A stretch of DNA of 64,000 bases, taken from Candidatus Glassbacteria bacterium. GTDB lineage: Bacteria; Gemmatimonadota; Glassbacteria; GWA2-58-10. The position numbers were made by a program, and so were the translations under genes. The DNA lies in assembly GCA_963752515.1 (NCBI GenBank), contig CAVVYO010000007.1, positions 112,660-176,659 on the forward strand, given 5' to 3'. Positions 511-62,390 of the stretch are shown here, piece after piece; within the stretch, counting starts at the first letter, position 1; the number at the start of each line of letters is the position of its first letter. The notes under the pieces are model-generated. The model searched no databases and was not told the DNA's origin. It was given only the letters and a program-made list of their open reading frames with translations.

Positions 511-553
511 GGCTTTCCCCCGGCTTCCCTTCCATTTTCCCAACCTCTTGCGC
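511..553. repeat. Partial copy of module A (flank and half-arm: CCCCCGGCTTCCCTTCCATTTTCCCAACCTCTT)
   Basis: Matches the CCGGACCCTCCTTCCTCTTTCCCAAACTTTTT flank seen at 16040 and 19100. Confidence 0.4.
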
Positions 554-4145: not shown

Positions 4146-4253
4146 TTGAACCAGCGAAAAGTTTGGGAAAGTGGAAGGGGGGGTTGGGGGGAAGGCATCC
4201 CTGGGGGGAGGGAGGAAATCCACGATTGCCTCGGGATTTCCTCCCTCCCCCCC
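4146..4253. repeat. Module A full copy: conserved flank TGAACCAGCGAAAAGTTTGGGAAAGTGGAAGG plus long GC-rich palindrome GGGGGGAGGGAGGAAATCC...GGATTTCCTCCCTCCCCCC
   Basis: Near-identical to copy at 31478-31578; perfect long inverted repeat; compensatory variants in other copies. Confidence 0.75.
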
Positions 4254-4346
4254 GCCACAGCCGTAATTTTCTCATTCTGGTTGTCAAAGTCGGTACAAGG
4301 CGGTCCCACGGCCCGCGCGGGCCATGGCACGGAAGGAGTTCCCGCG

Positions 4347-5130: not shown

Positions 5131-5227
5131 ACTGCATAGTGAGTGAAACAACCCCTCGCACGTCCTTCGGGAGTGCGATGCAGGGGCGTCCGTACGGGCG
5201 CCCCTCGCTTATTATAAGGAGTTTTTT

Positions 5228-6052: not shown

Positions 6053-6081
6053 CTGCCTGCTGTCCAGCATCTGTCATTAAA

Positions 6082-6120
6082 CTATCGAAAAAGTTTTCTC
6101 CCTCCCCCCGGAGCAGTTGG
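6082..6120. repeat. Partial module A/F copy (CGAAAAAGTTTTCTCCCTCCCCCCGGAGCAGTTGG)
   Basis: Shares CCCTCCCCCCGGARCAGTTGGC with 59695-59720 and flank CGAAAAAGTTT with module A. Confidence 0.4.
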
Positions 6121-6129
6121 CCATTGTCG

Positions 6130-7094
6130 TCAGGTTTGGATCAGCTCCTGTCCTGTCGCGGCGGGGCACGGCTCGGGCCGCTCGGTGGTCCCGTTGCGGA
6201 AGTACGCCTGCGGGAATAGCCGGTTGACCAGGATCCAGGCCCGCGGCTCGGCCCGTTTCATGGCGTGGCTGACCACCGGGACAATGCAGCCGCAGGTGCG
6301 GCAATCCACTCCGCGGCCCAGCACGCAGGGCTCCTTGCGATGCAGGGCGGCATCCAGCGAGATGAAATTTCTTCCCCGGAAGAAGCAGTCGCGGGCGTGG
6401 GCCTTGTCGCGCATGGTGGCGATGATCCGGGGGGTGAGCAAGACCAGCTTCCGGTCGCGTTTCCAGGCCCGCCGCAGCCGCGCGGTCGTTTCCTCGAGCT
6501 GCGCCCCGGCCAGCAGCAGCGGGTCATCCTGGCCGCGGTGGGAGGTGTAGAGGCTAAAGGTGATCCCCGCCACTTTGGTTTCCCGGGCGATCTCCACCAG
6601 CTCCTCGATGCAGTCGCGGTTGACAGTGGAGAGGGTCGGCGAGAGGACCACCCGACTGTCGCCGCGGACATTGGCGATGATCCGGTCGAACACCCGGGCC
6701 CCGCGAATCCGGTCGTGGACCTCCCGCGGGCCATCCAGGCTGACAAAAATCCGGCGGCGGATGTGCTCCGCCACCCGCTCGATCCCGTTGGTGGCGATCG
6801 CCAGGCCCGGGAATGTCCGGTCGGCGGCCTCGATCACCGCCGGGCGTAAGGAGTCGGCTCTCCGCCGGTGAGGAACGCGAAGCTCACCCCCCGGGCGCGG
6901 TGGTCGCGGAACAGCTCGCGCCACTGGCTGTCGGTCAGCTCATCCCGCGAGGCGAGGGTCTTGCGCCAGTAGCAGTGGGAACAGCTCAGATTGCAGCGGG
7001 AGGTGATCTCGTAGTTGGCTACCCGCGGAAAGCCATTGGCCTGCTTGAAATCCCGAATGAACCGGACCAGACGCACCAGCTTGGAACTGCTCAT
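6130..7094 (-). pseudogene. Radical SAM / SPASM-type protein with an apparent 1-nt frameshift (two ORFs 6834-7094 and 6130-6924 in different frames)
   Basis: N-terminal ORF carries CNLSCSHCYW (CxxxCxxC) and FLTGGEP; downstream ORF continues radical-SAM core and a C-terminal Cys cluster CRTCGCI; frames differ by one nt near 6835-6925. Confidence 0.6.
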
Positions 7095-8914: not shown

Positions 8915-9271
8915 GGCGCGACCTCGAATTGGCCTGGAAAGGGAAGGGGTGGGGGGCGGAAAGTCGCCCTCGGGAAGATATCATTCTAATGCCTTAACAT
9001 CAACAAAGTTCCAATTTCCGGAAGGGTAGACCGGGATTGAAGCTGGAATCGATGCGGAGAAACTTCGGAGGGCGAAAAGCTTGTTCAGGAATTCATCAGC
9101 CAGATCATCAGGTTGAGGTCCCCGGCGGACTCGATCCGGCCTTAAACTAGCGAAAAAGTTTGGTTCATCCGGGAATTCCGGAGTGAGAGCTTCTGCCGAC
9201 CGGGGAGCCGTGACGAGACCCTTCCCGGGCTGGGGGACACAAATTCCCGGCGGTGCGGCTAACTCTTTGGT

Positions 9272-9340
9272 TATCATTATGTTTCTTCTGCTGTGACCAG
9301 CAGCAGCCAGAGTCTGGCGGCGCAAAACTTGCCGGCCACA
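9272..9340. repeat. Module C short copy (TTCTTCTGCTGTGACCAGCAGCAG hairpin plus GGCGGCGCAAAACTTGCCGGCC)
   Basis: Homologous to 31165-31235 and, reverse-complemented, to 16365-16400. Confidence 0.6.
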
Positions 9341-9370
9341 CCCCAACCTCTGGGGCGGCGTCTGGAGATT

Positions 9371-9520
9371 ACACCCCCCGGCGGCTGAGGCCGCCACCCC
9401 CCTCCAGGGGGGACTGTGTTTGCTCCGCCCGTGGATGTGGAGCAACTGGTTGGGTGTCCGGCTATGATTCCCCCCTGGAGGGGGGTGGCCCCGCTTGCAG
9501 CGGGGCCGGGGGGTGTCAGC
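9371..9520. repeat. Module B copy 1: ~150-bp palindromic element with terminal inverted repeats (T)TACACCCCCCGG ... CCGGGGGGTGTCA
   Basis: Internal hairpins GGCGGCTGAGGCCGCC, CCCCCCTCCAGGGGGG, GGCCCCGCTTGCAGCGGGGCC; copies at 16189 and 25884. Confidence 0.65.
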
Positions 9521-9552
9521 TTTTCCGGCCGCCTCAGCCGGCCCAGAGCTGG

Positions 9553-9586
9553 CCGCAGGGGCGTCCGGCCGGACGCCCCTACAGCC
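9553..9586. repeat. Module E: perfect palindrome GGGGCGTCCGGCCGGACGCCCCTAC
   Basis: Second copy at 29281-29308; partial at 16145-16165; related hairpin in NYN 5' UTR (5190-5212). Confidence 0.55.
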
Positions 9587-9639
9587 GTTTCCCGAGCTAT
9601 CTGGTTCGAATTACTTAACTTGCGGATGGGTAAGCGCAT

Positions 9640-9880
9640 TGTCTTGGGGAGCGTGGCGGAGTGGTCTTGCGGGCCGTGGCTGGAGGCAAGGGATAGCGGA
9701 GCCGTTGCCGCATAATTTCCATCGTGGCTACTGCTACGAAGCGAGAGAGCCCGGCAGGCCATCGCGTTGCAGCGCCAGGGATGGCGCGAAACGCGGCGAC
9801 CTCAAAAGGAGCGATTTACCTCCCGCAGGCACACCGCTGCCAATTGAAGAGCTGATTGATCCTTCAGCTTCGCGGCCTTG
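9640..9880. repeat. Module D copy 1: ~240-bp conserved non-coding element (candidate structured RNA or transposon end)
   Basis: About 85 percent identical by eye to reverse complement of 28925-29172, e.g. GGCAGGCCATCGCGTTGCAGCGCCAGGGATGGCGCGAAACGCGGCGACC in both; differences include indels not in multiples of three. Confidence 0.6.
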
Positions 9881-10018
9881 GCTTCACAAGACTCTTGCTA
9901 CTTCTGGTCACAGAAGTAGAAAAATCCGAAGGATTTACGGGATTAACAGAGAGTTGGAGATTGCCCTCCAGCCCTTTTTGGTCACAAAAAGAAGAACAGC
10001 CGTCAGGCTTCAGAAATT
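9866..10018. repeat. Module C long copy: hairpin TACTTCTGGTCACAGAAGTA, hairpin AAATCCGAAGGATTT, then GGTCACAAAAAGAAGAACAGCCGTCAGGCTTCAG
   Basis: Homologous to 16395-16535 and, reverse-complemented, to the tandem pair at 28745-28925. Confidence 0.65.
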
Positions 10019-10044
10019 GCCAAGCGATCCGCAGCCTCCGCCCC

Positions 10045-11811: not shown

Positions 11812-12175
11812 TGAACTTCCTCCGGGATGATGGAGCGGATTCGAGCCGGGGCGCGCGTGTCCCGGGCGCAACAGGCGGTCAGGGGGGAGCAGGTCGCGGC
11901 TCCCGCGGGACAACAGAAAGCGGGCGATGAACCCGGCCGTCGCGGCGGCCGATGCCCATCCTGCCCGCCAGGTTATTTAAGCAGGCCCGGTCCTGCTGTC
12001 AAGTGGGTTCATGCGGGAGGGAAAATTGTTTTGCTTCCATCGGCAAGGAGTTATATAGTTCAAGCCACCGGCGGCGACAGCGCCGGACAGCCTCCCCGAG
12101 CATGTTCGCAGCGCCGCGCGGTCCCTGTCCCAGCTGGGCGGAACCGCGCTCACCCGACCGCAAGGAGACCGAGGG

Positions 12176-14631
12176 ATGCGCACTCACAGGTTCGAGCGGC
12201 TTTTCGCCGCGGCCCTGCTGGTTTCGGCCGCCACCCTGGCCCTGTCCGGCTGCCGTGGGCCGGAGCCGCGCCGGGCCGGACGACCCGGCCGCGGCATGGG
12301 AGGTGATTGGTCCGGGCGGCGGCGGCTCCACTTTCAACCCGACCTACAACCCCCGGGACCCGCAGAAAATCATCATCCGCTGCGACATGACCGGGACCTA
12401 TGTCACGGTCGATGGCGGCCAGTCCTGGCGGATGCACAATTTCCCGGGCGGGATGCGCACTTTCGCCTGGGACCCCTCCCGCCCGGCGGTGGTTTATGCC
12501 GGCGGGGATGGCCTCTACCGCTCCCGCGATGACGGCCGGAACTGGGAGCTGGTGTTCCCCGCTCCGGACCGGGTCACCGCCACCCGTTACCTGGGCGATC
12601 ATGCCGACTTCGCGATCCTCTCCGCGGACAATTTCCCGGAAGGGGCCTCGGTCACCGCGATCGGAGTCGACCCCCAGGACCCGCGAAGGCTGCTGGTGGG
12701 GCTGACCCGCAGCTCCGGCGGCGGGCCTGGCGCGGGGCTGTTCCTGTCGGAGGATGAGGGCGCGAGCTGGCGCGAGGTGGCCTCGCCGGCCCAGCCGGTG
12801 CTGGCGATTGCCGCCGATCCCCGGCCGGATGGCGAGCTGCTGGTGTTCACCCCGCGCGAGCTGAAGGTTTTCGACCGCTCCGATGGCTCCCTTGCCGACC
12901 GCCCCTTGCCGGAGGGTGTCGAGCGGCTGCAGTCGGTTTCCTGCGGCACGGATGCGGCCGGGAAAGTGTTCCGGGTCTACGCCCTGGCGCCGGTGGGCTG
13001 GGATGGCAAGCGGCACACCGGCGGGCTGTTTATCTCCGATGACGGCGGCCAGAGCTGGCGGCAGGCCACCGCCGGCCTGACCGAGGGCCTCGCGCCCGGG
13101 TCGGGACGATGGGGGGCTGACCCTGGACAACATCGCCTGCGCCGCGCTGGAGAGCGAGGTCGCCTACCTGGTCTGCAGCCGGTTCGATGCCGTGAACCCG
13201 CGGGGGGAGGTCGGCCACTGGTACGGGATCCTCAAGACCGAGGATGCCGGCGCGAGCTGGCGCTGGGTCTACCGCGCCGGGGGCGGCTCTCCCGACTACA
13301 CCATCCGCGATGGCTGGGAGGCCGAGAACCTGCAGGACTCCTGGGTCCGGCAGGCGTTCGCCGGGGAATTCATCCTGGCCCTCACCGCCGGGGTCTACCC
13401 CGCCGATGGCGACATCGCCAGCTTTACCGACTGGTACCGCACGATGCAGACCACCGATGGCGGGGCGACCTGGCGGGAGGTCTACAGCCGCCCCAACCCG
13501 GACAGCACGGTCACCAGCCGCGGGATGGATGTCACCACCTGCTATGGGGTCCATTTCGACCCGTTCGATCCGCAGCACCTGGCGGTGAGCTACACCGACA
13601 TCGGCTACTTCCACTCGTTCGATGGCGGCAAGTCGTGGCTGCGGTCGGTGGAGGGGCTGCCATCGGCCTGGGACAATACCTGCTACTGGATGCAGTTCGA
13701 TCCGGAGGTGGAGGGACGGCTCTGGTCGGTGTGGTCCTCCTGGCACGACATCCCGCGGCTGAAGATGGTGCGCAGCCCGCGCTGGCGGGAGTTCGCGGTG
13801 GGCGGAGTCGGTGTCTCGGACGATGGCGGCCGGACGTGGCGGGTCTCCAGCGATGGGTTGCCGGAGAACGCTCCCACCACCAGCATCGTGCTCGACCCCG
13901 ACACCCCGGCCGGCAACCGCACTCTCTATGTGACGGTCTTCGGCCAGGGCGTGTTCCGCTCCACCGATGACGGCCGCAGCTGGGAGCTCAAGAACCGTGG
14001 GCTGGGCGATCAACCGGCGGCCTGGGAGCTGAGCCTGGCCCGGGATGGCAACCTCTACCTGGTGGTGACCCAGATCATCGACCACCCGGACCCCCAAAAT
14101 CCGCAACTGCTGGATGGCGCGCTCTACCGCTCGGGCGACCGCGGCGAGACCTGGGTGCGGTTGCCCCTGCCCGCCGGCGTGCGTTTCCCGAACTCCCTGA
14201 CTGTCGATCCGGACCAGCCCCAGCGTCTCTATCTTTCCTGCTGGGCCAGCCTGCGCCAGGGGGACTATACCCGGGAGGGCGAGCCGGGCGGGCTGGCGGA
14301 GGCCGCGGGCGGGGCCTGGCTCTCGGAGGATGGCGGCGCCACCTGGCGGAACATCTTCGACCCCGCGGTCTATGTCTACGGCCTGACAGTCGACAGCCGT
14401 CACCCGGGAAGGCTCTACCTCAACACCTTCCAGAACGCCGCCTGGCGCAGCGATGACCGGGGCGAGAGCTGGGGCCGGATCGCCGGCTATGATTTCGAGT
14501 GGGGCCACCGCGTGGTGCTCGATCCCCACGACCCGGAGCAGGTCTATCTCACCACGTTCGGCGGCAGCGTGTTCCACGGCCGCCCGAATCTGCGCCGGGG
14601 AGGCGTCCGCCACCGCTCCGGAGGCGGCCAA
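12176..14631 (+). pseudogene. BNR/Asp-box repeat beta-propeller lipoprotein (GH74/sialidase-like fold) with at least two frameshifts and no in-frame stop before the next gene
   Basis: AAGGAG RBS plus lipoprotein signal MRTHRFERLFAAALLVSAATLALSGC in frame 2; protein-like translation shifts to frame 0 near 12255-12290 (..AAAWEVIGPGGGGSTFNP..DGGQSW) and to frame 1 near 13095-13105 (..LTLDNIACAALESEV..); many S/T-x-D-x-G-x-x-W repeats. Confidence 0.55.
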
Positions 14632-15984
14632 ATGAGCGCTATAAAAATTATGATACTGCTGTTCCTGGCGCTGGCCGGGCTGCCTGACATCGCTCCGGCC
14701 CTTTCCCCGGACCCGGTCCGCCGGGCGGTGGAACAGGAGTACCTGCAGCGCGCGGCGGAGGGAGCGGAGAAGTACCGCCAAGGCCCGGCCGAGCTGGTGC
14801 TGAAGGATCGCGCGGGCCATCCGCTGGCCGGGGCCACTGTCCGGGTGGAGCAGTTGCGGCACGAGTTCCTGTTCGGCAGCATCATTTTCGACCAACTGCG
14901 GGGCCAGGGCGACCCCTCCCGCGAGCAGGCCTACAAGGCGGCTTTCGCGAAGATTTTCAATTTCGCGGTCTTCCCGTTCTACTGGAAAGGCTATGAGCCG
15001 GAGGAGGGCCGGCCGCAGTGGGAGGCGATGACCCCGCTGCTCGAGTGGTGCCGCTCCCGGGGGATCACCACCAAGGGCCATCCGCTGGTCTGGACCGCCC
15101 CCTCGGGTTGGCCGGACTGGCTGGACCGTTACCCGCCGCAGGAGACGGTCGAGCTGCTCCAGCGACGGGTGACCGCGGTCACCGCCGGCTTCCGGGACCG
15201 GATCGAGATCTGGGATGTCTACAACGAGCCGGTCAACACCACGGCCTGGGGCTACCAGGGGCGCGAGTTCTGGGTGGATGACCGCCCGCTGGAGGAGTCC
15301 TCGCCGCTGGTGGAGCAGGCCTTTCATTGGGCCGAGCGCGGCAACCCCTCGGCGCACCTGATCCTCAACGAGTTCTACACCATCACCAAGCCCAACACCC
15401 GCGAGCGCTTCCACGCCCTGGTCAAGGGTCTGCTGGAAAAGGGAACGCCGATCCGCGGGCTGGGAATCCAGGGCCATGAGCCGCGCCAGTACTGGTATGA
15501 CCCGCGGGAGGTCTGGGCGGATTTCGACCGGCTGGGGGAGTTCGGGCTGCCGCTGCACCTGACCGAGGTGACTTTCACCTCTTCCGGCGACACCCTGCGC
15601 GGCTGGCGCGCCGGCGAGGGGGTCTGGGATGAACAGACCCAGGCCGAGTGCATCGAGCATTTCCTGCGGCTGGCGTTCGGACACCCCGCGGTGGCCTCGT
15701 TCAATTTCTGGGGCTTTTCCGACCGGGCGGTCTGGCTGAAAAAGGGCGGGCTGGTGGATGAGAACTACCGTCCCAAGCCCGCCTATGAGCGGGTGGACAG
15801 CCTGGTCAACCGCGAGTGGCACACCAGCCTGGCGGGCCGCACCGATGGGCAGGGCAAGCTTTCCTTCCGCGGCTTCCACGGCGACTACCGGGTGGAGGTC
15901 ACCACCGCCGATGGCCGGGTGCGCCGCTGGGAGCTGCCCCTGCGCAGCGACCGGGAAAACCGCTGGGTGCTGCTGGTGAAATGA
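14632..15984 (+). CDS. GH10 family glycoside hydrolase (beta-1,4-xylanase-like) with signal peptide
   Basis: GGAGG 7 nt upstream of ATG 14632; signal MSAIKIMILLFLALAGLP; GH10 acid/base motif WDVYNEP and nucleophile region LHLTEVTF. Confidence 0.8.
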   Translation: MSAIKIMILLFLALAGLPDIAPALSPDPVRRAVEQEYLQRAAEGAEKYRQGPAELVLKDRAGHPLAGATVRVEQLRHEFLFGSIIFDQLRGQGDPSREQAYKAAFAKIFNFAVFPFYWKGYEPEEGRPQWEAMTPLLEWCRSRGITTKGHPLVWTAPSGWPDWLDRYPPQETVELLQRRVTAVTAGFRDRIEIWDVYNEPVNTTAWGYQGREFWVDDRPLEESSPLVEQAFHWAERGNPSAHLILNEFYTITKPNTRERFHALVKGLLEKGTPIRGLGIQGHEPRQYWYDPREVWADFDRLGEFGLPLHLTEVTFTSSGDTLRGWRAGEGVWDEQTQAECIEHFLRLAFGHPAVASFNFWGFSDRAVWLKKGGLVDENYRPKPAYERVDSLVNREWHTSLAGRTDGQGKLSFRGFHGDYRVEVTTADGRVRRWELPLRSDRENRWVLLVK

Positions 15985-15987
15985 TCA

Positions 15988-16105
15988 TTCCGGGAGAGGG
16001 AGGAAAACCTTTTGGAAAAGGTTTTCCTCCCTCTCCCCGGACCTCTCTCTCTCTTTTCCCAAACTTCTTCGCAAGTTTCACGCGGGAGAACCGGCAACTG
16101 GCTGG
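15988..16105 (+). terminator. Module A copy acting as terminator-like hairpin for GH10 gene (hairpin GGGAGAGGGAGGAAAACC..GGTTTTCCTCCCTCTCCC then CTCTCTCTCTTTTCCCAAAC)
   Basis: Starts 4 nt after GH10 stop; stem carries compensatory substitutions relative to other copies; U-rich tract follows on the + strand. Confidence 0.6.
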
Positions 16106-16188
16106 AAGTGGGTCGAATTTGTTCGCCACCAACCAGGAGCGTAGCGACCCGGCCGGACGCCCCGGCTGATGAGGCGGTGCCCGGGCAT

Positions 16189-16337
16189 GACACCCCCCGG
16201 CAGCTGAAGCTGCCACCCCCCTCCAGGGGGGAGTAACAACGCTACACCCAACCGGTTGCGGCAACTCGACAGGTGCAGCCGGCACGGTCCCCCCTGGAGG
16301 GGGGTGGCCCCGCGGCAAGCGGGGCCGGGGGTGTAAG
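16189..16337. repeat. Module B copy 2, flanked by direct repeat GCCCGGGCAT (16179-16188 and 16338-16347)
   Basis: TIRs TGACACCCCCCGG / CCGGGGGTGTAA; same internal hairpins as copy 1; flanking 9-10 bp direct repeat resembles a target-site duplication. Confidence 0.65.
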
Positions 16338-16364
16338 GCCCGGGCATCGCACCAGCGGACGGGA

Positions 16365-16535
16365 GGCGGCATGCGAGTTTTGCGCCGCAAAAACTTTTGG
16401 TCCTTCTGGTCACAGCAGGAGAAAAATCCGCAGGATTTAGGGGATAAAGAACAAGCTGAAGATTTCCCTCCAGCCCTTTTGGGTCACAAAAAGAAGAACA
16501 GCCTGTCAGGCTTCAGGGATTTTCAAGATAGCTGG
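16365..16535. repeat. Module C copy (reverse orientation relative to 9866-10018)
   Basis: GGCGGCATGCGAGTTTTGCGCCGC, CCTTCTGGTCACAGCAGGAG, AAATCCGCAGGATTT, GGGTCACAAAAAGAAGAACAGCCTGTCAGGCTTCAG. Confidence 0.6.
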
Positions 16536-16726
16536 GGCTCCCGCCCCGCCGTGGCTTCCCCGAATGTCCGGATGAGCCTTAATACAGGGGATTGTGTTTT
16601 TTCTGCATTTTCAACACTTATGTAACTGAGTGCTGTGCATCGTCCGACAGGATGCAGAAATGCAAGGGGCCGCATCCTGTTCGAGGTGCGGCCCCTCTTA
16701 GTTTCATTCCAGTATGCCGCTTGGCC

Positions 16727-17533
16727 TCAGCTCCAGCCGTAGGCCTCGTGCAGCGCCCGGGCGGTGGGGATCACCCGCACGGTCTCGATCTTCATCAGCC
16801 GCTCCAGCAGCCTTTCCAGGTAGGCCGCGCCGATCGGGCCCCAGCCCTCCTCATCCAGCCCGTGAGTGTTGTAGACCATCCAGCCGCTGGGACGAGCCAG
16901 CAACTGCTCGATGTTCTCATCGATCGAGGCCTCGCCATTGCCCGGGCCGAATCCTCCGGTGCCGATCTTGGTCATCCCGACATGGGGCAGGGGATTGAGC
17001 ATCTCCCCATGGCAACGGTAGGCCAGCACCTGCGAGGGCAGCCAGGCCTCAATCTCCGGGGTGGCGTCATTGTAGGGGAAATTGAACACCGCCCGGCTGG
17101 CCTGGAAGCCTTTCAGCTCGGCCTCGAAGATGCGCAGGCACTCGGTGATCAGCCCCTGGGCCTCCGCGTGGGGCAGGCGGTCCAGGTGCTCGTGGTGGTG
17201 GCCATGCGGCATCACCTCGTGGCCCCGGGCCTGGAGCTCGTTCCAGAGGACAAAATCCCCGAGCTGGCCGGGGTCGACGTAGTCATCGACCAGCGGGCTC
17301 TCGGGCCGGTTGCCGGCGGCGGTGACATTGAAGCAGGCCGACAACCCGAACTTCTCGTAGATCTCGGCCGTGCGGAGGAACGACTTGCGGAAGCCGTCAT
17401 CGAAGCTCAGGGTGACCAGGTGCGGTTTCGGCACAGCTTTCTCCGAGCAGGCCTGGGTGAGGCCGGCGGCCGCGACGCAACAGGGAAACAGGCCGGCGGT
17501 CTTGATGAATTCGCGACGAGTGGGCATCATCAT
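16727..17533 (-). CDS. Polysaccharide deacetylase (CE4, NodB homology domain) with Tat-like signal
   Basis: RREFIKTAG signal; NodB motif TLSFDDG; His-rich HGHHHEH; hairpin GGGGCCGCACCTCGAACAGGATGCGGCCCC just downstream. Confidence 0.8.
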   Translation of the reverse strand: MMMPTRREFIKTAGLFPCCVAAAGLTQACSEKAVPKPHLVTLSFDDGFRKSFLRTAEIYEKFGLSACFNVTAAGNRPESPLVDDYVDPGQLGDFVLWNELQARGHEVMPHGHHHEHLDRLPHAEAQGLITECLRIFEAELKGFQASRAVFNFPYNDATPEIEAWLPSQVLAYRCHGEMLNPLPHVGMTKIGTGGFGPGNGEASIDENIEQLLARPSGWMVYNTHGLDEEGWGPIGAAYLERLLERLMKIETVRVIPTARALHEAYGWS

Positions 17534-17548
17534 CTCCTGCGGTTGGAG

Positions 17549-19005
17549 TCACCGTTTCAGTCCCGGCCCGCGGGCATCTTCGGTGGCCGGGGCTTGCCGC
17601 CCGGACCGGGGCAGCCACATTTTCTCGATCTCCTCCAGCGACTTCTCCTTGGTCTCGGGCACGAACAGGATCACGAACAGCACGGTCACCGCGCACATCA
17701 CGGCATAGAGCCAGAACGGGAAGCCGTGGTGGAAGTGTTCCACCAGCCAGGGGTCCTCGTTGAGCATCGGGAAGCTCTGGGAGACCACGAAATTGGCCCC
17801 CCACAGGCAGAACGTGGCCAGCGCCATCGCCCGGCCGCGGATGATGGTCGGGAAAATCTCCGAGAGCACCACCCACGCCACCGGGCCCAGCGACAGGGCG
17901 AAGCAGGCGATGTAGCCCAGGGCGAACGGCAGCACCCACAACGCGGCCTCGCCCAGGTAGGCCGAGATCCCCAGGGCGGTCAGGCAGATTCCCATCCCCG
18001 CCGCGCCCCAGATCATCAGCGGGCGGCGGCCCAGGCGGTCCACCGTCGTAAAGGGCGAAGACCGTGAAGCCCAGGTTGACCACTCCGATCGCGATGGTCT
18101 GCAGCAGGGCGGTATCGGTGCCGGAGCCCAGGCCCTTGAAAATCTCCGGGGCATAGTACATGAAGACGTTGATCCCGGTCACCTGTTGCAGGATCGCCAG
18201 CACCACTCCGATCACCAGCACGATCCGCATCCCGGGATGAAAGAGCTGGGCGAGCGAGCCGCTCTCGTGCGACAGGGCCTCGCGGATCTCGCCCAGCTCC
18301 CGCCGGGCCTGGACTGTGCCGCCGGCGCGCTCCAGGATCGCCAGGGCCTCGTCCTCCCGCCCGCGGGCGCAGAGCCAGCGCGGGGACTCGGGGACAAAGA
18401 ACAGCAGCACCAGCAGCACCAGCGCCGGCAGGGCCTCCGAGCCGAACATCCAGCGCCAGCCCACCGCGACATTCCATTCCAGGCCGCCCAGCCCGGCGAT
18501 GAAGTAGTTGACGAAGTAGACCAGCAGGATTCCGATCACGATCGCGAACTGGTTGATGGTCACCATCCGGCCGCGCACCGGGGCCGGGCTGATCTCGGCG
18601 ATGTACATCGGCGACGGTCATCGAGGCCGCGCCGACCCCGATCCCGCCGATGATCCGGTAGATCACGAACCAGAAGATGTCCGGCGGCAGGGCGGTGCCG
18701 ACCGCCGAAATCAGGTAGAACACCGCCGCCAGCAGCAGCACTTTCTTGCGGCCCAGCCGGTCGCTCAGCACCCCGGCCCCGGCCACTCCCAGCATGCAGC
18801 CGACCAGGGCCGAGCTGGCCGCCCAGCCCACCCAGGCCGGGGAAAGCGCGAACCGCTGCTGCAGGAAGCCGATCGCCCCCGAGATCACCGCCGTGTCATA
18901 GCCGAACAGCAGCCCGCCCAGGGCCGCCACGATGCTCACCCCGGCCACATAGGCCAGGCTGCCCTCCCGCGCCCCGCCCGCTTGCCGCTGCCGCCGCTCT
19001 TCCAT
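17549..19005 (-). pseudogene. MFS sugar porter (XylE/GalP-like) interrupted by two apparent frameshifts
   Basis: Three consecutive minus-strand ORFs in different frames each translate to sugar-porter segments (GYDTAVISGAI, PMYIAEISPAPVRGRMVTINQF, PESPRWL, VLSEIFPTIIRGRAMALATF, PETKEKSLEEIEKMW); junctions near 18600 and 18060-18154. Confidence 0.6.
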
Positions 19006-19055
19006 CCGCTCGCTCCTCCATGATGGTTGTCGCCTCGCACCTGTTCTGCCGACTG

Positions 19056-19136
19056 ATCCGGGGGAGGGGAGAAATCCCGTTGGTCGGGATTTCCTCCCTC
19101 CCCCCGGACCCTCCTTCCTCTTTCCCAAACTTTTTA
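19056..19136. repeat. Module A copy (GGGGGAGGGGAGAAATCCC..GGGATTTCCTCCCTCCCCCC plus CCTCCTTCCTCTTTCCCAAACTTTTT)
   Basis: Palindrome with compensatory changes; conserved flank. Confidence 0.65.
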
Positions 19137-19167
19137 TCTATTAAATTCTTATGTAAATATGTCAGGA

Positions 19168-21768: not shown

Positions 21769-21987
21769 GGGATGGCTCCCGGATAAGGAGATGGTGACTG
21801 GGGTGCGGGCGGCGCAAGGGCCGGCGCGGGGTCCATCAATAGTATTACGCCGTCCCCTGCCGGTCAAGCGGTTACAGCGGGAGTGGCCGGCCGCGGAAAC
21901 GACCGGCCCGCGGGGGAGCAGAAAAAACCGCCCCCGGAAGGCGGCAGCTCCCGGGGGCGGTCAAAAGGCCAATCATCGCGTTTCGGC

Positions 21988-22920
21988 TCAGAACCTCCGC
22001 AACAGGCCGGCAGCGGTGGTGTCATACGGGCCACCGGTGGTATCGCCCGGGACACTGGTGGTATCACCCGGGACACCGGTGGTATCGCCCGGCACGCCGG
22101 TGGTGTCACCCGGGACACCGGTGGTGTCACCCGGGACACCATCCAGCTCGATCTCGACCATCGTCTCCTCATCCTCGGTCACATCGGCCTCGACCTGGCC
22201 GACCACTGTCCCGGTGGTGTCGCGGACCAGGATCGTGAACGGGCCGGGCGGCAGGAAGCCGAGGGTGAACCCGCCATCCTCGCCGACAAAGGTCGAGGTG
22301 ACGGTGTCGGCGCCGCTGACAGCATAGACCACCGCCCCGCGCGGGGCATCCGGCAGCTCACCGCTGACCTTGCCGACGCTGTCGGCGGTGACCAGGCGCA
22401 AGGTGGGGTCGAAGTCGTAATTATCCGCCCCCTCCTGGGCCTGGACCGAGCGGGCGACATCGAAGTCCACCACCACCTCGGTGGTTTGGTCCTCCTCCAC
22501 CATGAAGCCATCCTGGTTCTCGACCATGGCGGCATTGCCGGGCACTGTCAGCTGATAGCTCTGGGTGTCGGCCGTCACCACGGTCGCCTGCCCGATGCTG
22601 ATCCGGACCGCATCGTAGAAACCGGTGTCGATCTCGGCCTCGGCCAGCAACTCGGACTCGCCGCCGGTGAGCTGCAGCAGGTCCAGGCTCACCGGCTGCT
22701 GGGAGAGGGTCACCCATTGGTCGTTGCGACGCGCCTCCACCCGGGTGATGGTCAGGTTGAACTGATCGAAAGCCGCCGGGGCATCGGCCAGGTAGATCGC
22801 CAGGGTGCCCTGCAGGCCGGTCCCCGGTCCGACCGGGGTCGTGTCATCATCATCGCAGGCCGCCGCCAGCGCGAGCAACGGCCAGGCCAATACTGTCAGA
22901 TACTTGAATGCGACTCGCAA
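21988..22920 (-). CDS. DUF4382-like lipoprotein with C-terminal tandem GVPGDTT heptad repeats
   Basis: AAGGAGG 6 nt upstream of TTG start at 22918-22920; lipobox LLALAAAC; body resembles DUF4382 (TLAIYLADAPAAFDQFNLTITRVEA). Confidence 0.6.
   Translation of the reverse strand: MRVAFKYLTVLAWPLLALAAACDDDDTTPVGPGTGLQGTLAIYLADAPAAFDQFNLTITRVEARRNDQWVTLSQQPVSLDLLQLTGGESELLAEAEIDTGFYDAVRISIGQATVVTADTQSYQLTVPGNAAMVENQDGFMVEEDQTTEVVVDFDVARSVQAQEGADNYDFDPTLRLVTADSVGKVSGELPDAPRGAVVYAVSGADTVTSTFVGEDGGFTLGFLPPGPFTILVRDTTGTVVGQVEADVTEDEETMVEIELDGVPGDTTGVPGDTTGVPGDTTGVPGDTTSVPGDTTGGPYDTTAAGLLRRF
22018..22143 (-). repeat. 21-nt tandem repeat (about 6 units, CCGGTGGTGTCACCCGGGACA-like) encoding GVPGDTT repeats
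   Basis: Direct inspection: near-identical 21-mers in tandem inside the DUF4382-like CDS. Confidence 0.7.
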
Positions 22921-23011
22921 CTTCCGCCTCCTTGATCCTGATTGTTCCGCACCTGGCCCCCGGCTTCCGTCCGGACCATGCCGGGGACTCTCCCCGCAAA
23001 CCCGCCCGAAC

Positions 23012-23051
23012 CTGTACCGATCTGGCACAACCCTGTGCCGGATCGGTACAG
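23012..23051. promoter_or_regulatory. 18-bp inverted repeat CTGTACCGATCTGGCACA-ACCC-TGTGCCGGATCGGTACAG upstream of DUF4382-like gene; contains TGGCAC-N5-TGTGC resembling a sigma-54 -24/-12 element
   Basis: Near-perfect palindrome (1 mismatch) about 95 nt upstream of TTG start; GG-to-GC spacing is 11 rather than the canonical 10. Confidence 0.35.
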
Positions 23052-23406
23052 GCGCGATGACCACCCTGTTCGGGCGGCCGGTGGGCGGGGCCGGAGGGAG
23101 GGGGCCTCCCTGCCCGCACTCCGACCGTGCGGCTCTCAGGTCTGCAAGGCGAATGCCACGCGGGGGGTGTTAGTGTGCTAACCTGCAAATTTACAAAGAA
23201 TTAGATGTTTCTGGCGGCGGGTGGTCCGGGGCGGGCGCGGCTTTGCGGGAAAAATGATAAAATGCTGAAAAAAAGGTATCAGCTTTTTAAAATATTGCTT
23301 ATCAAAGACCTGAAGCGATCGGGCGGCGGTAAAGCCGAGCTCAAGGAACCGGTTCCCGGGGCCGCGCGAAACATCTGATAGTCTTCACAGCGTTGTCAAA
23401 TCGGGA

Positions 23407-25644: not shown

Positions 25645-25725
25645 GGGACAAGTAATTTTAAAGTTAATACCAAGCAGATCTGAATAACAAAGGACTCATC
25701 ACCGACTGAGCTTTGGCTCGCCGGT

Positions 25726-25757
25726 CCCCCTCGGGTCGCGACCCGGGGGTTTTTATT
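25726..25757 (+). terminator. Orphan terminator-like hairpin CCCCCTCGGGTCGCGACCCGGGGG plus TTTTTATTT on + strand, upstream of the beta-helix gene start
   Basis: GC stem followed by T-tract; no + strand CDS immediately upstream. Confidence 0.3.
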
Positions 25758-25883
25758 TGGTTCATCCTTTTGTTTTGGGAAAAGCAGTGAAGCTTTCGGG
25801 AAATCAGCATCGCTTATCTGACAGATGGGTGGCCGCCCGGATTGGCCTGACCCAATCCATTGGCGGAAGAAGGCACATCAGCT

Positions 25884-26036
25884 TGACACCCCCCGGCAGC
25901 TGAAGCTGCCACCCCCCTCCAGGGGGGAGCTTGCTTGCTTCGCCCGTGGAGTTGCTGCAACCGGTCGGGTGGCAGGCTGTCAAGTCCCCCCTGGAGGGGG
26001 GATGGTCCCGATTCTATCGGGACCAGGGGGGTGTGA
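25884..26036. repeat. Module B copy 3
   Basis: TGACACCCCCCGGCAGCTGAAGCTGCCACCCCCCTCCAGGGGGGAG ... CCCCCCTGGAGGGGGG..GGGACCAGGGGGGTGTGA. Confidence 0.65.
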
Positions 26037-29446: not shown

Positions 29447-29530
29447 CACAGCAAAAAGTTTGGGAAGGTGAGAGGGGGTCCGGGGGAGAGCGGAAACCTT
29501 TTTCAAAAGGTTTCCGCTCTCCCCCGGAAA
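29447..29530 (-). terminator. Module A copy positioned as terminator for the decarboxylase gene (on minus strand: hairpin then CCTTCCCAAACTTTTTGCTG)
   Basis: Palindrome GGGGGAGAGCGGAAACC..GGTTTCCGCTCTCCCCC (compensatory changes) 10 nt after the stop of the minus-strand CDS. Confidence 0.6.
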
Positions 29531-29540
29531 TGTTTGAGCA

Positions 29541-31235: not shown

Positions 31236-31477
31236 TGGTGGTCTTCAATTGGCCGTTTGTAATCGCTGGTTCTTTACGCTACCCGCCTGCGTGGGTAGCG
31301 CTGACGCGCATCTGCCAGTCAGTTTTTGCCTCCCCTGATGCCGAACATGGGATTGAGAGCAATGTAACCGCTGCTTTGCCGTGGCTCATATCCCGATTAC
31401 ATCGGGACTGCCGCGGTGGCGGCCAAAGGCCGCCTGAGGGTGAAAGGCAAAGACTTTGGAATGTCACCCATTAATCA

Positions 31478-31578
31478 ATAAAAAGTTTGGGAAAGTGGAA
31501 GGGGGGATTGGGGGGAAGGCATCCCTGGGGGGAGGGCGGAAAACCTTTTCCAAAAGGTTTCCGCCCTCCCCCCGGGAA
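31478..31578 (-). terminator. Module A full copy positioned as terminator for heparinase-like gene
   Basis: Near-identical to 4146-4253; on minus strand hairpin is followed by CCTTCCACTTTCCCAAACTTTTTATTG 15 nt after the CDS stop. Confidence 0.65.
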
Positions 31579-31592
31579 ACGCTGGCAATCAG

Positions 31593-53765: not shown

Positions 53766-53810
53766 CCTCAAGTTGAAGGGAGGCTCGCCCCCCTTTTTTA
53801 CGCTCCGGGG
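53766..53810 (+). terminator. Rho-independent terminator after DUF4091-like gene
   Basis: GGGGGCGAGCCCTCAAGTTGAAGGGAGGCTCGCCCCC then TTTTTTAC. Confidence 0.6.
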
Positions 53811-53875
53811 GGAAGGCGGAAACCTTTGGGGAATGGTTTCCGTCCTCTGCCCGGAACAACTGGTCGTCTTTTCGG
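53811..53875. repeat. Module A-like imperfect hairpin (GGGGGGAAGGCGGAAACC..GGTTTCCGTCCTCTGCCC) with F-type flank CCGGAACAACTGGTCGTCTTTTCGG
   Basis: Degenerate palindrome related to module A; flank shared with 59695-59735. Confidence 0.45.
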
Positions 53876-53914
53876 TGTTGTCGTCAAATTGGCATCATGG
53901 GCGGGAGGATCGGA

Positions 53915-55434: not shown

Positions 55435-55457
55435 AAGTTAAAGCCAAACCGTCTGTT

Positions 55458-55512
55458 CCGGGGGGAGGGCGGGAACCTTTTCCACCTTCCAAAACTTTTT
55501 CGCTGGTTCGAT
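55458..55512. repeat. Truncated module A (left arm CCGGGGGGAGGGCGGGAACC + TTCCAAAACTTTTTCGCTGGTTCG)
   Basis: Internal-deletion derivative of the full element. Confidence 0.55.
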
Positions 55513-59694: not shown

Positions 59695-59735
59695 GCGCCC
59701 TCCCCCCGGAACAGTTGGCTTTTGCAGTCGAATTG
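59695..59735. repeat. Module F fragment GCCCTCCCCCCGGAACAGTTGGCTTTTGCAGTCG
   Basis: Shared with 6095-6125 and 53850-53875. Confidence 0.4.
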
Positions 59736-59873
59736 GTACGATGTCGCTGACCACGGAATTTGGAACCTTCCGCCGCGCCGGGCGGTCCCAGAGGGTGAAC
59801 GATGGTCGGGCGGGCGCGCTGCTTTTCCCGGCCTTGACTGTAACCGGCATCCTCGAGCAAGGGGGTCCTCACG

Positions 59874-62207: not shown

Positions 62208-62337
62208 TTTTTCGGAATTCTTGTATTCTCAGTCGGAAGTTGTTACAATAATGCTGATTCGGCCGGCGATGCCGGTGCGATGGGGGCGGCGGGTCTCACT
62301 CGGGGAGCGGGATCGCCGCCCTTGCTGCATCCGGCTG

Positions 62338-62390
62338 TTCCGGGGGGAGGGGAACTCTTCCTCTTTCCAAAACTTTTTCGCTGGTTCATT
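62338..62390. repeat. Truncated module A (CCGGGGGGAGGGGAACTCTTCCTCTTTCCAAAACTTTTTCGCTGGTTCA)
   Basis: Same flank as 55458-55512. Confidence 0.55.

What the first reader, a model, noticed from the sequence alone, without database searches (positions are those of the whole stretch)
4146..4253. Module A: a GC-rich 40-46 bp perfect palindrome with conserved AAAAAGTTTGGGAAAG flank, at least 8 hairpin-bearing copies plus truncated/flank-only copies in 64 kb, compensatory stem changes
Copies lie at 4146, 15988, 19056, 29447, 31478, 53811, 55458 (truncated) and 62338 (truncated), with flank-only or partial copies at 511, 6082, 9146 and 59695. The hairpin stem differs between copies (GGGCGGAAACC / GGGAGGAAATCC / GAGAGCGGAAACC / GAGGGAGGAAAACC) but both arms change together, preserving the palindrome. 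That pattern implies selection for the hairpin. Three copies sit directly after stop codons with hairpin followed by CCCAAACTTTTT in the sense direction (after GH10, the decarboxylase and the heparinase-like gene). They therefore probably act as intrinsic terminators, as REP/BIME elements do. Truncated internal-deletion derivatives indicate MITE-like decay.
Basis: partly seen in the sequence, partly recalled or inferred. Interest (0 to 1): 0.7.

Follow-up and report, generated by a model that had tools for sequence, protein, structure and literature searches.

The report
Triplex-shaped hairpin repeat in Glassbacteria
The repeated GC-rich hairpin is real and its two arms co-evolve, but it is not a dedicated terminator: a third, purine-rich segment mirrors one arm, giving the layout of a three-stranded DNA fold like the E. 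coli BoxC repeats, and that segment co-evolves with the arms too.

Summary
Module A is real. The window holds 6 hairpin-bearing copies, 3 internal-deletion copies and 3 fragments, all intergenic. The same element occurs in two other genomes of the Candidatus Glassbacteria clade. Across 12 copies, arm covariation is strong: 92.7% paired, 10 of 23 pairs changed on both sides, 0/500 shuffles reach this.

The terminator reading fails. Orientation relative to genes is mixed. The T run lies 13-45 nt from the stem. A terminator scan calls none of the hairpins, yet finds canonical terminators nearby.

New finding: the G/A/T-only tract (S) between the conserved flank and the left arm (L) is a mirror image of L. 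Anchored identity is 86%, against 70% in column shuffles (0/2000) and 64% for the best direct-repeat register. S changes together with L and the right arm R. The order 5'-S-turn-L-loop-R-3' is that of a class I purine-motif intrastrand DNA triplex. It is the sister layout of E. coli BoxC/PIT/TM_ECO, which is class II, also intergenic, orientation-free and deletion-prone.

A second repeat family in the window has the class II layout. The lineage's RAYT-type transposase is flanked by a different, GTAG-type REP. Triplex formation is inferred from sequence only.

The parts
4146..4170 (+). Copy 1 (the finding): conserved left flank TTGAACCAGCGAAAAGTTTGGGAAA
4171..4183 (+). Copy 1: S, a G/A/T-only tract GTGGAAGGGGGGG (candidate third strand). 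It mirrors the start of the next segment (4184-4202) in 10/10 positions plus a T/C position, and mirrors L less well
4184..4202 (+). Copy 1: 19-nt insertion TTGGGGGGAAGGCATCCCT, shared only with copy 31480. It is a partial direct copy of the start of L
4203..4252 (+). Copy 1: hairpin. Purine arm L 4203-4221, loop 4222-4233, pyrimidine arm R 4234-4252
4253..4296 (+). Copy 1: right flank with the TGGTTGTCAAAGTCGGTAC motif that recurs after copies 53811 and 59695 and after the copies in other genomes
15985..16081 (-). Copy 2, full: flank 16054-16081, S 16042-16053, L 16016-16038, R 15992-16013. R lies 4-7 nt from the GH10 stop codon (15984)
19049..19137 (-). Copy 3, full: flank 19121-19137, S 19109-19120, L 19085-19105, R 19060-19079. 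It lies between the GH67N-like gene stop (19168) and the MFS transporter start
29447..29532 (+). Copy 4, full and the cleanest: flank 29447-29466, S GGTGAGAGGGGG 29467-29478, turn TCC, L 29482-29502, R 29505-29525. S mirrors L in 13 of 14 positions
31474..31585 (+). Copy 5, full with a 20-nt insertion: flank 31474-31494, S 31495-31506, insertion 31507-31526, L 31527-31549, R 31552-31573
53807..53896 (+). Copy 6: decayed hairpin (L 53807-53824, R 53835-53852, several uncompensated mismatches) plus a long right flank. It has no flank and no S
55449..55511 (-). Copy 7, internal deletion: flank + start of S + R + right flank. L and the loop are lost
62331..62389 (-). Copy 8, internal deletion downstream of rimO. 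The orthologous spacer in 6 related loci has no Module A
6077..6139 (+). Copy 9, internal deletion. The junction lies in the GTTTT that occurs both in the flank and at the start of R (a slippage-type deletion)
9142..9163 (+). Left flank only
59695..59739 (+). R arm remnant plus right flank only
513..548 (-). Degenerate flank + S remnant

Best explanation
Module A is an interspersed intergenic repeat of about 85-110 nt, specific to a Candidatus Glassbacteria (Gemmatimonadota) lineage.

Layout of a full copy, 5' to 3' on its G-rich strand:
- a conserved A/T-rich flank, (GAACCAGCG)AAAAAGTTTKGGAA;
- a G/A/T-only tract S;
- a 2-4 nt turn;
- a purine arm L;
- a short loop;
- a pyrimidine arm R;
- a short right flank, GGAA(A/C)A.

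Shown from sequence: L and R form a 19-24 bp hairpin. S is the mirror image of the basal 13-16 nt of L. Folded back, S would therefore lie antiparallel to L in the major groove and make G*G-C, A*A-T and T*A-T triads. This is the class I purine-motif intrastrand triplex layout (reverse-Hoogsteen strand, then purine strand, then pyrimidine strand). In duplex DNA the same S/L pair is a classical H-DNA mirror repeat fused to a cruciform-forming palindrome. Both relations, L/R complementarity and S/L mirror identity, are kept by coordinated substitutions.

Inferred mechanism: the element acts as a DNA structure, not as a signal read in one direction by RNA polymerase. The G-rich strand would fold when it is single-stranded or under negative supercoiling, during replication, transcription or repair. 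That fold is what selection, or the unknown copying machinery, preserves. It also stalls polymerases and promotes slippage, which would produce the observed copies that have lost S/L but kept the flank and R. Effects on neighbouring genes, such as a 3' hairpin on convergent mRNAs, would be by-products.
For: 1. Hairpin covariation: 23 pairs, 92.7% paired, 10 pairs with double changes, covariation score 0.339 against 0.197 in shuffles (0/500), slid controls lower.
2. Mirror relation S/L: over 14 anchored positions in 12 copies, 85.7% identity against 70.0% when S letters are shuffled within columns (0/2000). Seven columns change in both S and L while staying identical, in 21 cells against 9.0 expected (0/2000). 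Sliding S by 1-3 nt gives 43-56%.
3. The true S-to-L assignment is the single best of 5040 permutations among 7 subfamilies.
4. The best direct-repeat register gives only 64%, against 84% for the mirror.
5. Concrete triple changes. Copy 29453 differs from the common type by G->A in S, G->A in L and C->T in R at the same triad. The L015a/L028b type differs at four L positions (7, 8, 10, 11) and all four are mirrored in S.
6. S contains no C in any copy and uses T opposite A. That fits a purine-motif third strand on the G-rich strand, not a pyrimidine-motif strand on the complement.
7. S is left unpaired in the minimum-energy DNA folds.
8. An ITxF-like scan (10 triads, at most 1 mismatch) finds 2 loci in the window, both Module A, and 0 in each of 20 shuffles.
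9. A second, unrelated repeat family has the class II layout Y-R-[hairpin]-RH. It shows a three-way change between genomes: CCCCCCT/AGGGGGG/GGGGGGT against CCCCTCT/AGAGGGG/GGGGTGT.
10. Behaviour matches the described BoxC/PIT/TM_ECO motif: always intergenic, no orientation bias, head-to-head pairs (L028, L015, L052, L085), small deletions, uneven abundance among relatives (PMC4666352).
Against: - No experiment. Triplex formation is inferred from sequence only.
- For TM_ECO itself, in vivo DMS footprinting and duplex CD/NMR did not show a stable triplex (PMC4666352).
- The sample is small: 12 hairpin copies in about 7 subfamilies. The copies are related by descent, so shuffles overstate significance. 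I set the S/L registers and removed the bulges by hand.
- Each copy has 1-3 non-canonical triads. Many have a C-G interruption, opposite T in S. I recall the T*C-G triad as tolerated, but verified it here only for the pyrimidine motif.
- The turn nucleotides (TCC, CC) are often complementary to the right flank (GGA, GG). They could extend the hairpin instead of forming a free turn.
- In copies 4156 and 31480 a 19-20 nt insertion separates S from L. There S mirrors the inserted segment, which has no pyrimidine partner on the same strand. This fits duplex H-DNA better than an intrastrand triplex.
- The function of the strongly conserved AAAAAGTTTKGG flank is not explained.
Confidence: 0.5

Rival explanations
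1. Plain REP/MITE-like hairpin repeat. Only the L/R hairpin matters, for mobilisation by a single-strand transposase or for stabilising mRNA 3' ends. The G-rich spacer is low-complexity filler whose resemblance to a mirror of L comes from composition and shared descent.
For: Hairpin covariation is solid. Copies are extragenic, abundant (12 sites in 64 kb) and embedded in mosaics with other repeats. Deletion derivatives exist. Individual copies' mirror matches are only modestly above composition-preserving shuffles (p = 0.0006 to 0.24 per subfamily). The rimO spacer shows presence/absence among relatives.
Against: Mirror identity beats column shuffles, slid registers and the direct-repeat model. 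Substitutions in L are matched in S at the mirrored position in several subfamilies. No replication or recombination process is known to me that creates mirror (non-complemented) repeats. There are no terminal inverted repeats. The lineage's RAYT is flanked by another hairpin family.
Confidence: 0.25
2. Intrinsic (possibly bidirectional) transcription terminator. The hairpin stops RNA polymerase, and CCCAAACTTTTT supplies the U tract.
For: Three copies start 4-15 nt after the stop codons of the GH10, decarboxylase and heparinase-like genes, and no other terminator-like site is seen there. The hairpins are very stable.
Against: The T run is 13-45 nt from the stem. None of the hairpins is called in the terminator scan, while canonical terminators are. 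Orientation relative to flanking genes is mixed. Copy 53811 follows a canonical terminator. Truncated hairpin-less copies are retained. PIT/BoxC elements showed no terminator or promoter activity in the work cited in PMC4666352.
Confidence: 0.1
3. RNA-level element on the C-rich strand. Read in reverse, the transcript is purine arm - loop - pyrimidine arm - turn - pyrimidine third strand. That is a class III pyrimidine-motif RNA triple helix, which could protect mRNA 3' ends, or be a small RNA driven by the TTGACA-containing motif in the right flank.
For: For G/C-rich motifs, a class I layout on one strand implies a pyrimidine-motif layout (class III here) on the complement, and pyrimidine-type intrastrand triplexes can form in RNA (PMC4666352). 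The reverse complement of the right-flank motif reads TTGACA-N16/17-TAnnGn in L003, L049, L085 and copy 4156. Three copies lie in the 3' UTR of convergent genes in this orientation.
Against: It would need about 10 protonated C+*G-C triads at neutral pH. The T residues of S become A in this strand, which fits no pyrimidine-motif triad. Most window copies lack the right-flank motif, and its putative -10 is poor. Orientation is mixed. Rfam gives only sub-threshold generic long-hairpin (miRNA precursor) hits.
Confidence: 0.07
4. Promoter or operator module for the downstream gene. The flank AAAAAGTTTGGG would act as a Bacteroidota-like -7 box, or GGAAC in the right flank as an ECF -35.
For: Seven copies (4156, 19135, 53811, 55500, 59695, L015a, L028b) point toward a gene start 40-100 nt away.
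Against: Eight copies point into the 3' end of a convergent gene. Spacings to candidate -35/-10 partners are inconsistent. The downstream genes are functionally unrelated (SIMPL, MFS transporter, glyoxalase, ThiS, Sir2-like). The sigma-70 scan calls nothing at the elements.
Confidence: 0.05

Closest known systems
BoxC / PIT element / TM_ECO intrastrand triplex motif of E. coli and other Proteobacteria and Cyanobacteria (Hoyne et al. 2000, as cited; Holder et al. 2015, PMC4666352)
   Same: It is a G/C-rich interspersed repeat of three consecutive blocks on one strand: a pyrimidine arm, a purine arm, and a purine-rich third strand that mirrors the purine arm. It is always intergenic and has no orientation or gene-function bias. 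Copies are often in head-to-head pairs. It is prone to small deletions, and its abundance is very uneven among relatives.
   Different: TM_ECO is class II (5'-Y-R-RH-3') with 9-nt blocks and 3-6 nt loops. Module A is class I (5'-RH-R-Y-3') with 13-16 potential triads on the basal part of a 19-24 bp hairpin. Module A also carries a conserved 16-25 nt A/T-rich flank and lives in an uncultivated Gemmatimonadota lineage. Triplex formation by TM_ECO was shown in vitro; for Module A it is not tested.
REP / BIME / REPIN elements with their RAYT transposase
   Same: Extragenic palindromic repeats with compensatory stem changes, high copy number, mosaic clusters with other modules, and possible effects on mRNA 3' ends.
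   Different: There is no GTAG (or equivalent) at the hairpin foot. The hairpin is 40-50 nt rather than 20-40 nt, with a long asymmetric flank. The RAYT-like gene of two related genomes is flanked by GTAGGGGCGACGCATGCGTCGCCC hairpins, and the window has that GTAG type separately at 9555-9582 and 29278-29305.
MITEs such as ERIC, Correia/NEMIS, RUP
   Same: Short non-coding interspersed elements with internal-deletion derivatives and insertion polymorphism among relatives.
   Different: No terminal inverted repeats. The two ends carry direct, not inverted, similarity (GAACCAGCG ... GAACAGCCG in the window; AAAAAG ... AAAAAG in the other genomes). No variable target-site duplication is seen.
H-DNA-forming homopurine-homopyrimidine mirror repeats (best known from eukaryotic promoters and introns)
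   Same: The S-turn-L segment is a homopurine mirror repeat with a 2-4 nt spacer, which is the defining requirement for H-DNA.
   Different: Here the mirror repeat is fused to an inverted repeat of the same arm, is a dispersed repeat family in a bacterium, and shows covariation.

Membership tests
Intrastrand triplex motif, class I purine motif (ITxF definition, PMC4666352) | Three consecutive blocks on one strand in the order reverse-Hoogsteen strand, purine strand, pyrimidine strand | tested here: met
   S-turn-L-loop-R in all full copies
Intrastrand triplex motif, class I purine motif (ITxF definition, PMC4666352) | The third strand, antiparallel to the purine strand, gives G*G-C, A*A-T or T*A-T triads. 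Stem 6-15 nt, with at most one mismatch if longer than 7 nt | tested here: inconclusive
   88.1% allowed triads over 14 positions in 12 copies. Copies 29453 and 16069 pass a 10-triad, at most 1-mismatch scan. Others have 2-3 mismatches or a C-G interruption opposite T
Intrastrand triplex motif, class I purine motif (ITxF definition, PMC4666352) | Both connecting loops 1-6 nt | tested here: not met
   The first turn is 2-4 nt, but 19-20 nt in copies 4156 and 31480. Between the triad-forming parts of L and R lie a further 6-10 bp of stem plus the loop
Intrastrand triplex motif, class I purine motif (ITxF definition, PMC4666352) | Triplex demonstrated physically (CD, NMR, melting) | not testable with these tools
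   Needs synthetic oligonucleotides
REP / REPIN-RAYT system | Conserved GTAG-like tetranucleotide at the 5' foot of a 20-40 nt imperfect palindrome | tested here: not met
   Module A arms start GGGGG/TCCGGGGG. GTAG hairpins are a separate family in the window
REP / REPIN-RAYT system | Cognate RAYT gene flanked by the same repeat | tested here: not met
   No Y1 transposase among the 40 window ORFs scanned. RAYT-like genes in L089 and L083 (Pfam Y1_Tnp 25.5 bits; NCBIfam REP_Tyr_transpos E = 1.6e-16, below its cut-off) are flanked by GTAGGGGCGACGCATGCGTCGCCC, not Module A. The window genome outside the 64 kb could not be searched
REP / REPIN-RAYT system | Extragenic, many copies, compensatory stem changes | tested here: met
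   12 intergenic sites in 64 kb
MITE | Terminal inverted repeats and target-site duplication | tested here: not met
   The ends are directly, not invertedly, similar, and the similar sequence is the same in many copies
Intrinsic terminator | GC-rich hairpin followed within 0-2 nt by a T/U run, oriented with the upstream gene | tested here: not met
   None of the four hairpins in 15500-32000 is called. The T run is 13-45 nt away and orientation is mixed
Described RNA family (Rfam 15) | Match at the gathering score | tested here: not met
   0 matches in the window at the gathering score. Only sub-threshold generic long-hairpin (miRNA precursor) hits with E-value thresholds

The most novel reading that the evidence does not exclude
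Selection maintains a 13-16 triad intramolecular DNA triple helix (H-DNA or intrastrand triplex) in vivo. The three-way coordinated substitutions in S, L and R, in two unrelated repeat families of the same lineage, would then be covariation evidence of the kind used for RNA structure. It would show that a bacterial triplex-forming repeat is a functional structure rather than a sequence curiosity.
Probability: 0.3. Interest if true: 0.8.

Novelty: new variant of a known kind. Interest (0 to 1): 0.6.

Why it matters
Whether intramolecular DNA triplexes form and matter in bacterial cells is unresolved. BoxC/TM_ECO folds in vitro but left no in vivo footprint, and its only known correlate is local genome instability (PMC4666352). 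A repeat family in which the third strand co-varies with both hairpin arms gives an evolutionary handle on that question. It also supplies defined sequences for biophysical and polymerase-stalling tests. In practice, the repeat breaks assemblies: the Logan contig of this organism ends inside the 29453 hairpin. It could also be mis-annotated as a terminator or as a REP.

Tried and rejected
Only the five loci of one Glassbacteria MAG were real.
- Metagenome scan with a longer flank+S pattern: one chance hit.
- Three viral-contig scans: unrelated repeats or a chance coding match. There is no sign of a phage vector.
- Exact look-ups of window proteins: not on record. The only other assembly of this organism is a 1.9 kb Logan contig that ends in the repeat, so same-species insertion polymorphism could not be tested.
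- Promoter readings were checked by eye and with the scan: sigma-70, Bacteroidota -33/-7, sigma-54 and ECF GGAAC. Spacings were inconsistent, so they were rejected.
- A pseudoknot between the flank UUUUGG and the loop CCAAAA was rejected: it is absent in copies 4156 and 19135, whose loops differ.
- G-quadruplex as the conserved feature was rejected: a canonical motif occurs in only 5 of 12 copies.
- S as a direct repeat of L, giving an alternative S-R hairpin, was rejected: best register 64% against 84% for the mirror.
- Strand choice from G-T against A-C mismatches in the stem was too sparse to decide.
- My first mirror test, with free slips, was weak. It gave clear results only once registers were fixed. 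This is a caveat as much as a result.
Full report
**What is in the sequence**

The region 4146-4296 holds one copy of a repeat that I orient as flank -> hairpin. Its parts are:
- a conserved flank, TTGAACCAGCGAAAAGTTTGGGAAA;
- a G-rich tract;
- a 19-bp hairpin, GGGGGGAGGGAGGAAATCC / GGATTTCCTCCCTCCCCCC;
- a right flank.

The 16-nt flank motif occurs 7 times with at most 2 mismatches, against 0 expected. The repeat finder recovers the hairpin family (D7) and the flank family (D20) on its own. A profile built from full copies finds five full copies in the window at E = 1e-16 to 1e-23 (4156+, 16069-, 19135-, 29453+, 31480+). It also finds a decayed hairpin at 53807-53852 and weak partial matches at 55449-55511, 62331-62389, 6077-6139 and 513-548. 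Flank-only (9142-9163) and right-end-only (59695-59739) pieces are seen by eye. That makes 6 hairpin-bearing copies, 3 internal-deletion copies and 3 fragments. All 12 lie between ORFs that have strong GC3 signal and mostly Pfam support.

**Where it comes from and where else it occurs**

The window is about 67% G+C. Its RimO is 61-66% identical to proteins that NCBI names Candidatus Glassbacteria, followed by a drop to about 50% for Gemmatimonadota and others. The decarboxylase gene is 100% identical to a protein on a 318-kb NCBI/ENA contig and has no close relatives. A 1.9-kb Logan contig of the same organism (99.9% identity) ends inside the 29453 hairpin.

An exact-pattern scan of one genome per species was mostly noise. 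It did hit five contigs of one MAG, Candidatus Glassbacteria Zod_Metabat.976, at 57-59% G+C. These carry six further copies: L003, L015 twice, L028 (one full and one truncated), L049 and L052. Fetching rimO neighbourhoods of clade members gave one more copy in a third genome at 53% G+C (L085/L086, between lolA and a beta-lactamase gene). About 21 kb each of three others, and 12 kb of a fourth, gave none. The spacer downstream of rimO carries a Module A remnant only in the window genome. Metagenome and viral scans added nothing. The family is therefore lineage-specific, unevenly distributed, and conserved across genomes that differ by 14 points of G+C.

**Hairpin covariation**

I aligned 12 hairpin copies from the three genomes (A1). 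RNAalifold predicts 23 pairs, and 10 of them have changes on both sides. Counting on that structure gives the following:

| measure | observed | control |
|---|---|---|
| cells paired | 92.7% | 84.5% in shuffles (0/500 reach it) |
| cells with double changes | 26 | 10.6 in shuffles (0/500 reach it) |
| cells paired after sliding the partner 1-3 columns | - | 50-75% |

As single-stranded DNA the hairpins fold at -23 to -32 kcal/mol, with z = -3.4 to -8.9.

**The terminator reading does not hold**

- Taking flank->hairpin as forward, copies between co-directional genes are forward four times (4156, 19135, 53811, 55500) and reverse three times (31480, 62378, 511).
- Copies 16069, 29453 and 6082 sit in convergent spacers. 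Copy 59695 sits in a divergent one.
- In the other genomes the mix is the same. L028b points at thiS and L015a at a Sir2-like gene. L003, L049, L085 and L028a point into convergent gene ends.
The first T run comes 13 nt (16069), about 22 nt (29453) or about 45 nt (31480) later.
- The consensus scan of 15500-32000 calls none of the four hairpins. It does find canonical hairpin+T-run sites elsewhere.
- Copy 53811 is directly preceded by a textbook terminator at 53760-53799.
- A strong hairpin will affect any transcript that crosses it. Nothing indicates that termination is what the family is built for.

**The missed feature: the spacer mirrors the left arm**

In every full copy the tract S between the flank and the left arm L contains only G, A and T. 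Read backwards, S equals L.

| copy | S | turn | L |
|---|---|---|---|
| L003 | AGGTGGGAGGGGG | CCT | GGGGGAGGGCGGA |
| 29453 | GGTGAGAGGGGG | TCC | GGGGGAGAGCGG |
| L015a / L028b | GAGAAATGGGGG | CTTT | GGGGGAAAGGAGA |
| L015b | AAAAAGGGATAGAGGG | ACC | GGGGGAAAGGGAAAAA |
| 16069 | AAAAGAGAGAGAGAGG | TCC | GGGGAGAGGGAGGAAAA |

With registers fixed at the turn, the results are:
- The correct pairing of S with its own L is the single best of 5040 permutations among seven subfamilies.
- Over 14 positions in 12 copies, identity is 85.7% against 70.0% when S letters are shuffled within columns (0/2000).
- Seven columns change in both S and L and stay identical, in 21 cells against 9.0 expected (0/2000).
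- Sliding S by 1-3 nt gives 43-56%.
- A direct-repeat model reaches at most 64%, against 84% for the mirror.

Individual events are telling. Copy 29453 differs from the common type by G->A in S, G->A in L and C->T in R at one triad. The L015a type differs from the common type at four L positions, and all four are mirrored in S. Where L has C (with G in R), S has T. Where L has A, S has A or T.

My first, looser test with free slips was only marginal per copy. The copies are also related by descent. The statistics should therefore be read as supportive, not final.

**What that architecture is**

A mirror repeat cannot pair by Watson-Crick rules, and I know of no replication or recombination process that generates one. 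The order 5'-S-turn-L-loop-R-3', with S antiparallel to a purine strand L and G opposite G, A or T opposite A, is exactly the class I purine-motif intrastrand triplex defined by Holder et al. 2015 (PMC4666352). In duplex DNA, S/L is the homopurine mirror repeat required for H-DNA.

That paper characterises the E. coli BoxC/PIT/TM_ECO motif, CCCTCNCCC-N3-6-GGGNGAGGG-N3-GGGNGAGGG. It is class II, always intergenic, and has no orientation or gene-class bias. It is often found in inverted pairs, varies widely in copy number between relatives, and is prone to small deletions. In the earlier work it cites, the motif had no promoter or terminator activity. It forms a triplex in vitro but gave no in vivo footprint.

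Module A behaves the same way. There are head-to-head pairs in L015, L028, L052 and L085. The deletion derivatives have lost S/L but kept R, and copy 6082 is joined at the GTTTT present in both the flank and R.

The differences are these:
- class I rather than class II;
- 13-16 potential triads on the basal part of a 19-24 bp hairpin, so it would escape the ITxF loop limits;
- a C-G interruption in many copies;
- a conserved A/T-rich flank.

A strict scan (10 triads, at most 1 mismatch) finds only Module A copies 29453 and 16069 in the window, and nothing in 20 shuffles.

The T residues in S, and in the second family below, fit a purine-motif third strand on the G-rich strand. They do not fit a pyrimidine-motif strand on the complement. 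According to the paper, purine-motif triplexes do not form in RNA. Both points favour DNA as the level of action.

**Independent support from a second family**

A second repeat has the architecture pyrimidine block - loop - purine block - embedded variable hairpin - purine-type third strand.
- Window: six copies at 9412-, 9470+, 16231-, 16289+, 25927- and 25986+, reading TCCCCCC-TGG-AGGGGGG-T-[variable hairpin]-GGGGGGTGT.
- Relatives L089 and L083: TCCCCTCT-ATCA-AGAGGGG-TG-[hairpin]-C-GGGGTGTGTG.

This is class II with a hairpin in the second loop. Between genomes, one triad changes in all three blocks: C/G/G becomes T/A/T. I did not analyse it further.

**REP/RAYT and MITE membership**

None of the 40 window ORFs scanned is a transposase. 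Two relatives carry a 175-aa RAYT-like gene.
- Pfam Y1_Tnp scores 25.5 bits, above the gathering score of 23.
- NCBIfam REP-associated tyrosine transposase scores E = 1.6e-16, which is below its cut-off.
- The HUH and Tyr motifs are visible.
- The gene is flanked by GTAGGGGCGACGCATGCGTCGCCC hairpins.

The window has that GTAG type as a separate family at 9555-9582 and 29278-29305, with a degenerate copy at 5180-5205. Module A is therefore not the lineage's canonical REP.

Its ends are directly rather than invertedly similar, and part of its left flank (CATCGAACCAGCG) recurs inside the other repeat module. That argues against a MITE with terminal inverted repeats and for a BIME-like mosaic organisation.

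**Other readings**

- Rfam has nothing: 0 matches at gathering scores, and only sub-threshold generic long-hairpin (miRNA precursor) hits otherwise.
- A canonical G-quadruplex motif is present in only 5 of 12 copies.
- Promoter models gave inconsistent spacings.
- A conserved motif 25-45 nt to the right of several copies (TTGTYGTCAAATTGGTA; reverse complement contains TTGACA) is shared across genomes. It is absent from most window copies, and it remains unexplained.

**Verdict**

The terminator and REP interpretation is only partly right.

The best-supported description is a lineage-specific interspersed repeat with the three-block layout of a purine-motif DNA triplex or H-DNA built on a long hairpin. 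It is a new variant of the BoxC/PIT/TM kind. Both the hairpin and the third strand are maintained by coordinated substitutions.

That it folds this way in cells, and what it does there, is inferred rather than shown. The candidates are structure-dependent copying, polymerase stalling with slippage deletions, or local instability.

Weaknesses:
- few copies, related by descent;
- hand-set registers;
- imperfect triads;
- turn nucleotides that can pair with the right flank;
- the 19-20 nt insertion in copies 4156 and 31480, which fits H-DNA better than an intrastrand fold;
- the negative in vivo data for TM_ECO.

Noticed in passing
window 9412-9470 region, 16231-16335, 25927-26035 (six copies: 9412-, 9470+, 16231-, 16289+, 25927-, 25986+); L089 17563 and 18579; L083 18455: A second repeat family reads TCCCCCC-TGG-AGGGGGG-T-[variable covarying hairpin]-GGGGGGTGT. 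That is a class II triplex-like layout with a hairpin in the second loop, arranged as inverted pairs. Relatives have CCCCTCT/AGAGGGG/GGGGTGT, a three-way change at one triad.
   Followed up: partly
window 9555-9582 (-), 29278-29305 (-), degenerate 5180-5205; L089 17672-17695, 17950-17973, 18270-18293; L090 11370-11430: GTAG-type REP hairpins (GTAGGGGCGTCCGGCCGGACGCCCC in the window) form a separate family. In relatives the same type flanks, and also occurs inside, a RAYT-like gene.
   Followed up: partly
L089 17718-18248 (-), L083 17600-18127 (-): A 175-aa RAYT-like Y1 transposase sits at a syntenic position in two Glassbacteria-clade genomes. A GTAG hairpin lies within its coding sequence (the GDACVAP peptide stretch).
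   Followed up: partly
window 17397-19128 (-): An MFS sugar transporter is split over three overlapping reading frames (Sugar_tr profile positions 1-123, 125-309 and 308-452). This is either a pseudogene or frameshift errors in the assembly.
   Followed up: no
window 11952-15984 (+): BNR/Sortilin repeats continue across two overlapping frames (11952-13970 and 13192-15984) ahead of the GH10 domain. This suggests one long gene with a frameshift.
   Followed up: no
window 53760-53799 (+): A canonical intrinsic terminator (GCGAGCCCTC...GAGGCTCGC followed by CCCCCTTTTTT) lies directly upstream of Module A copy 53811.
   Followed up: yes
window 4277-4296, 53875-53896, 59725-59739, 6120-6139; L003, L049, L085, L028b right flanks: The motif TTGTYGTCAAATTGGTA (reverse complement contains TTGACA) lies 25-45 nt to the right of some copies and is conserved across three genomes. 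AATTGG[TC]A occurs in the window only three times, two of them here. Its role is unknown.
   Followed up: partly
window 4184-4202 and 31507-31526: A 19-20 nt insertion (TTGGGGGGAAGGCATCCCT) is shared by two copies 27 kb apart. S mirrors this inserted segment rather than the hairpin arm.
   Followed up: partly
window 22011-22157: A 21-nt tandem repeat (five or more units) lies inside the DUF4382 gene on the opposite strand.
   Followed up: no
window 28697-29540, 9000-10040, 16070-16590, 30936-31592: Long intergenic regions (0.5-1 kb) are built almost entirely of several repeat modules in varying order (I1-I8, D6, D11). This is a BIME-like mosaic organisation.
   Followed up: no
L082 (Logan ERR10755943 contig, 1911 nt): An independent assembly of the same organism (99.9% identity) ends inside the 29453 hairpin. 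The repeat breaks short-read assemblies.
   Followed up: yes
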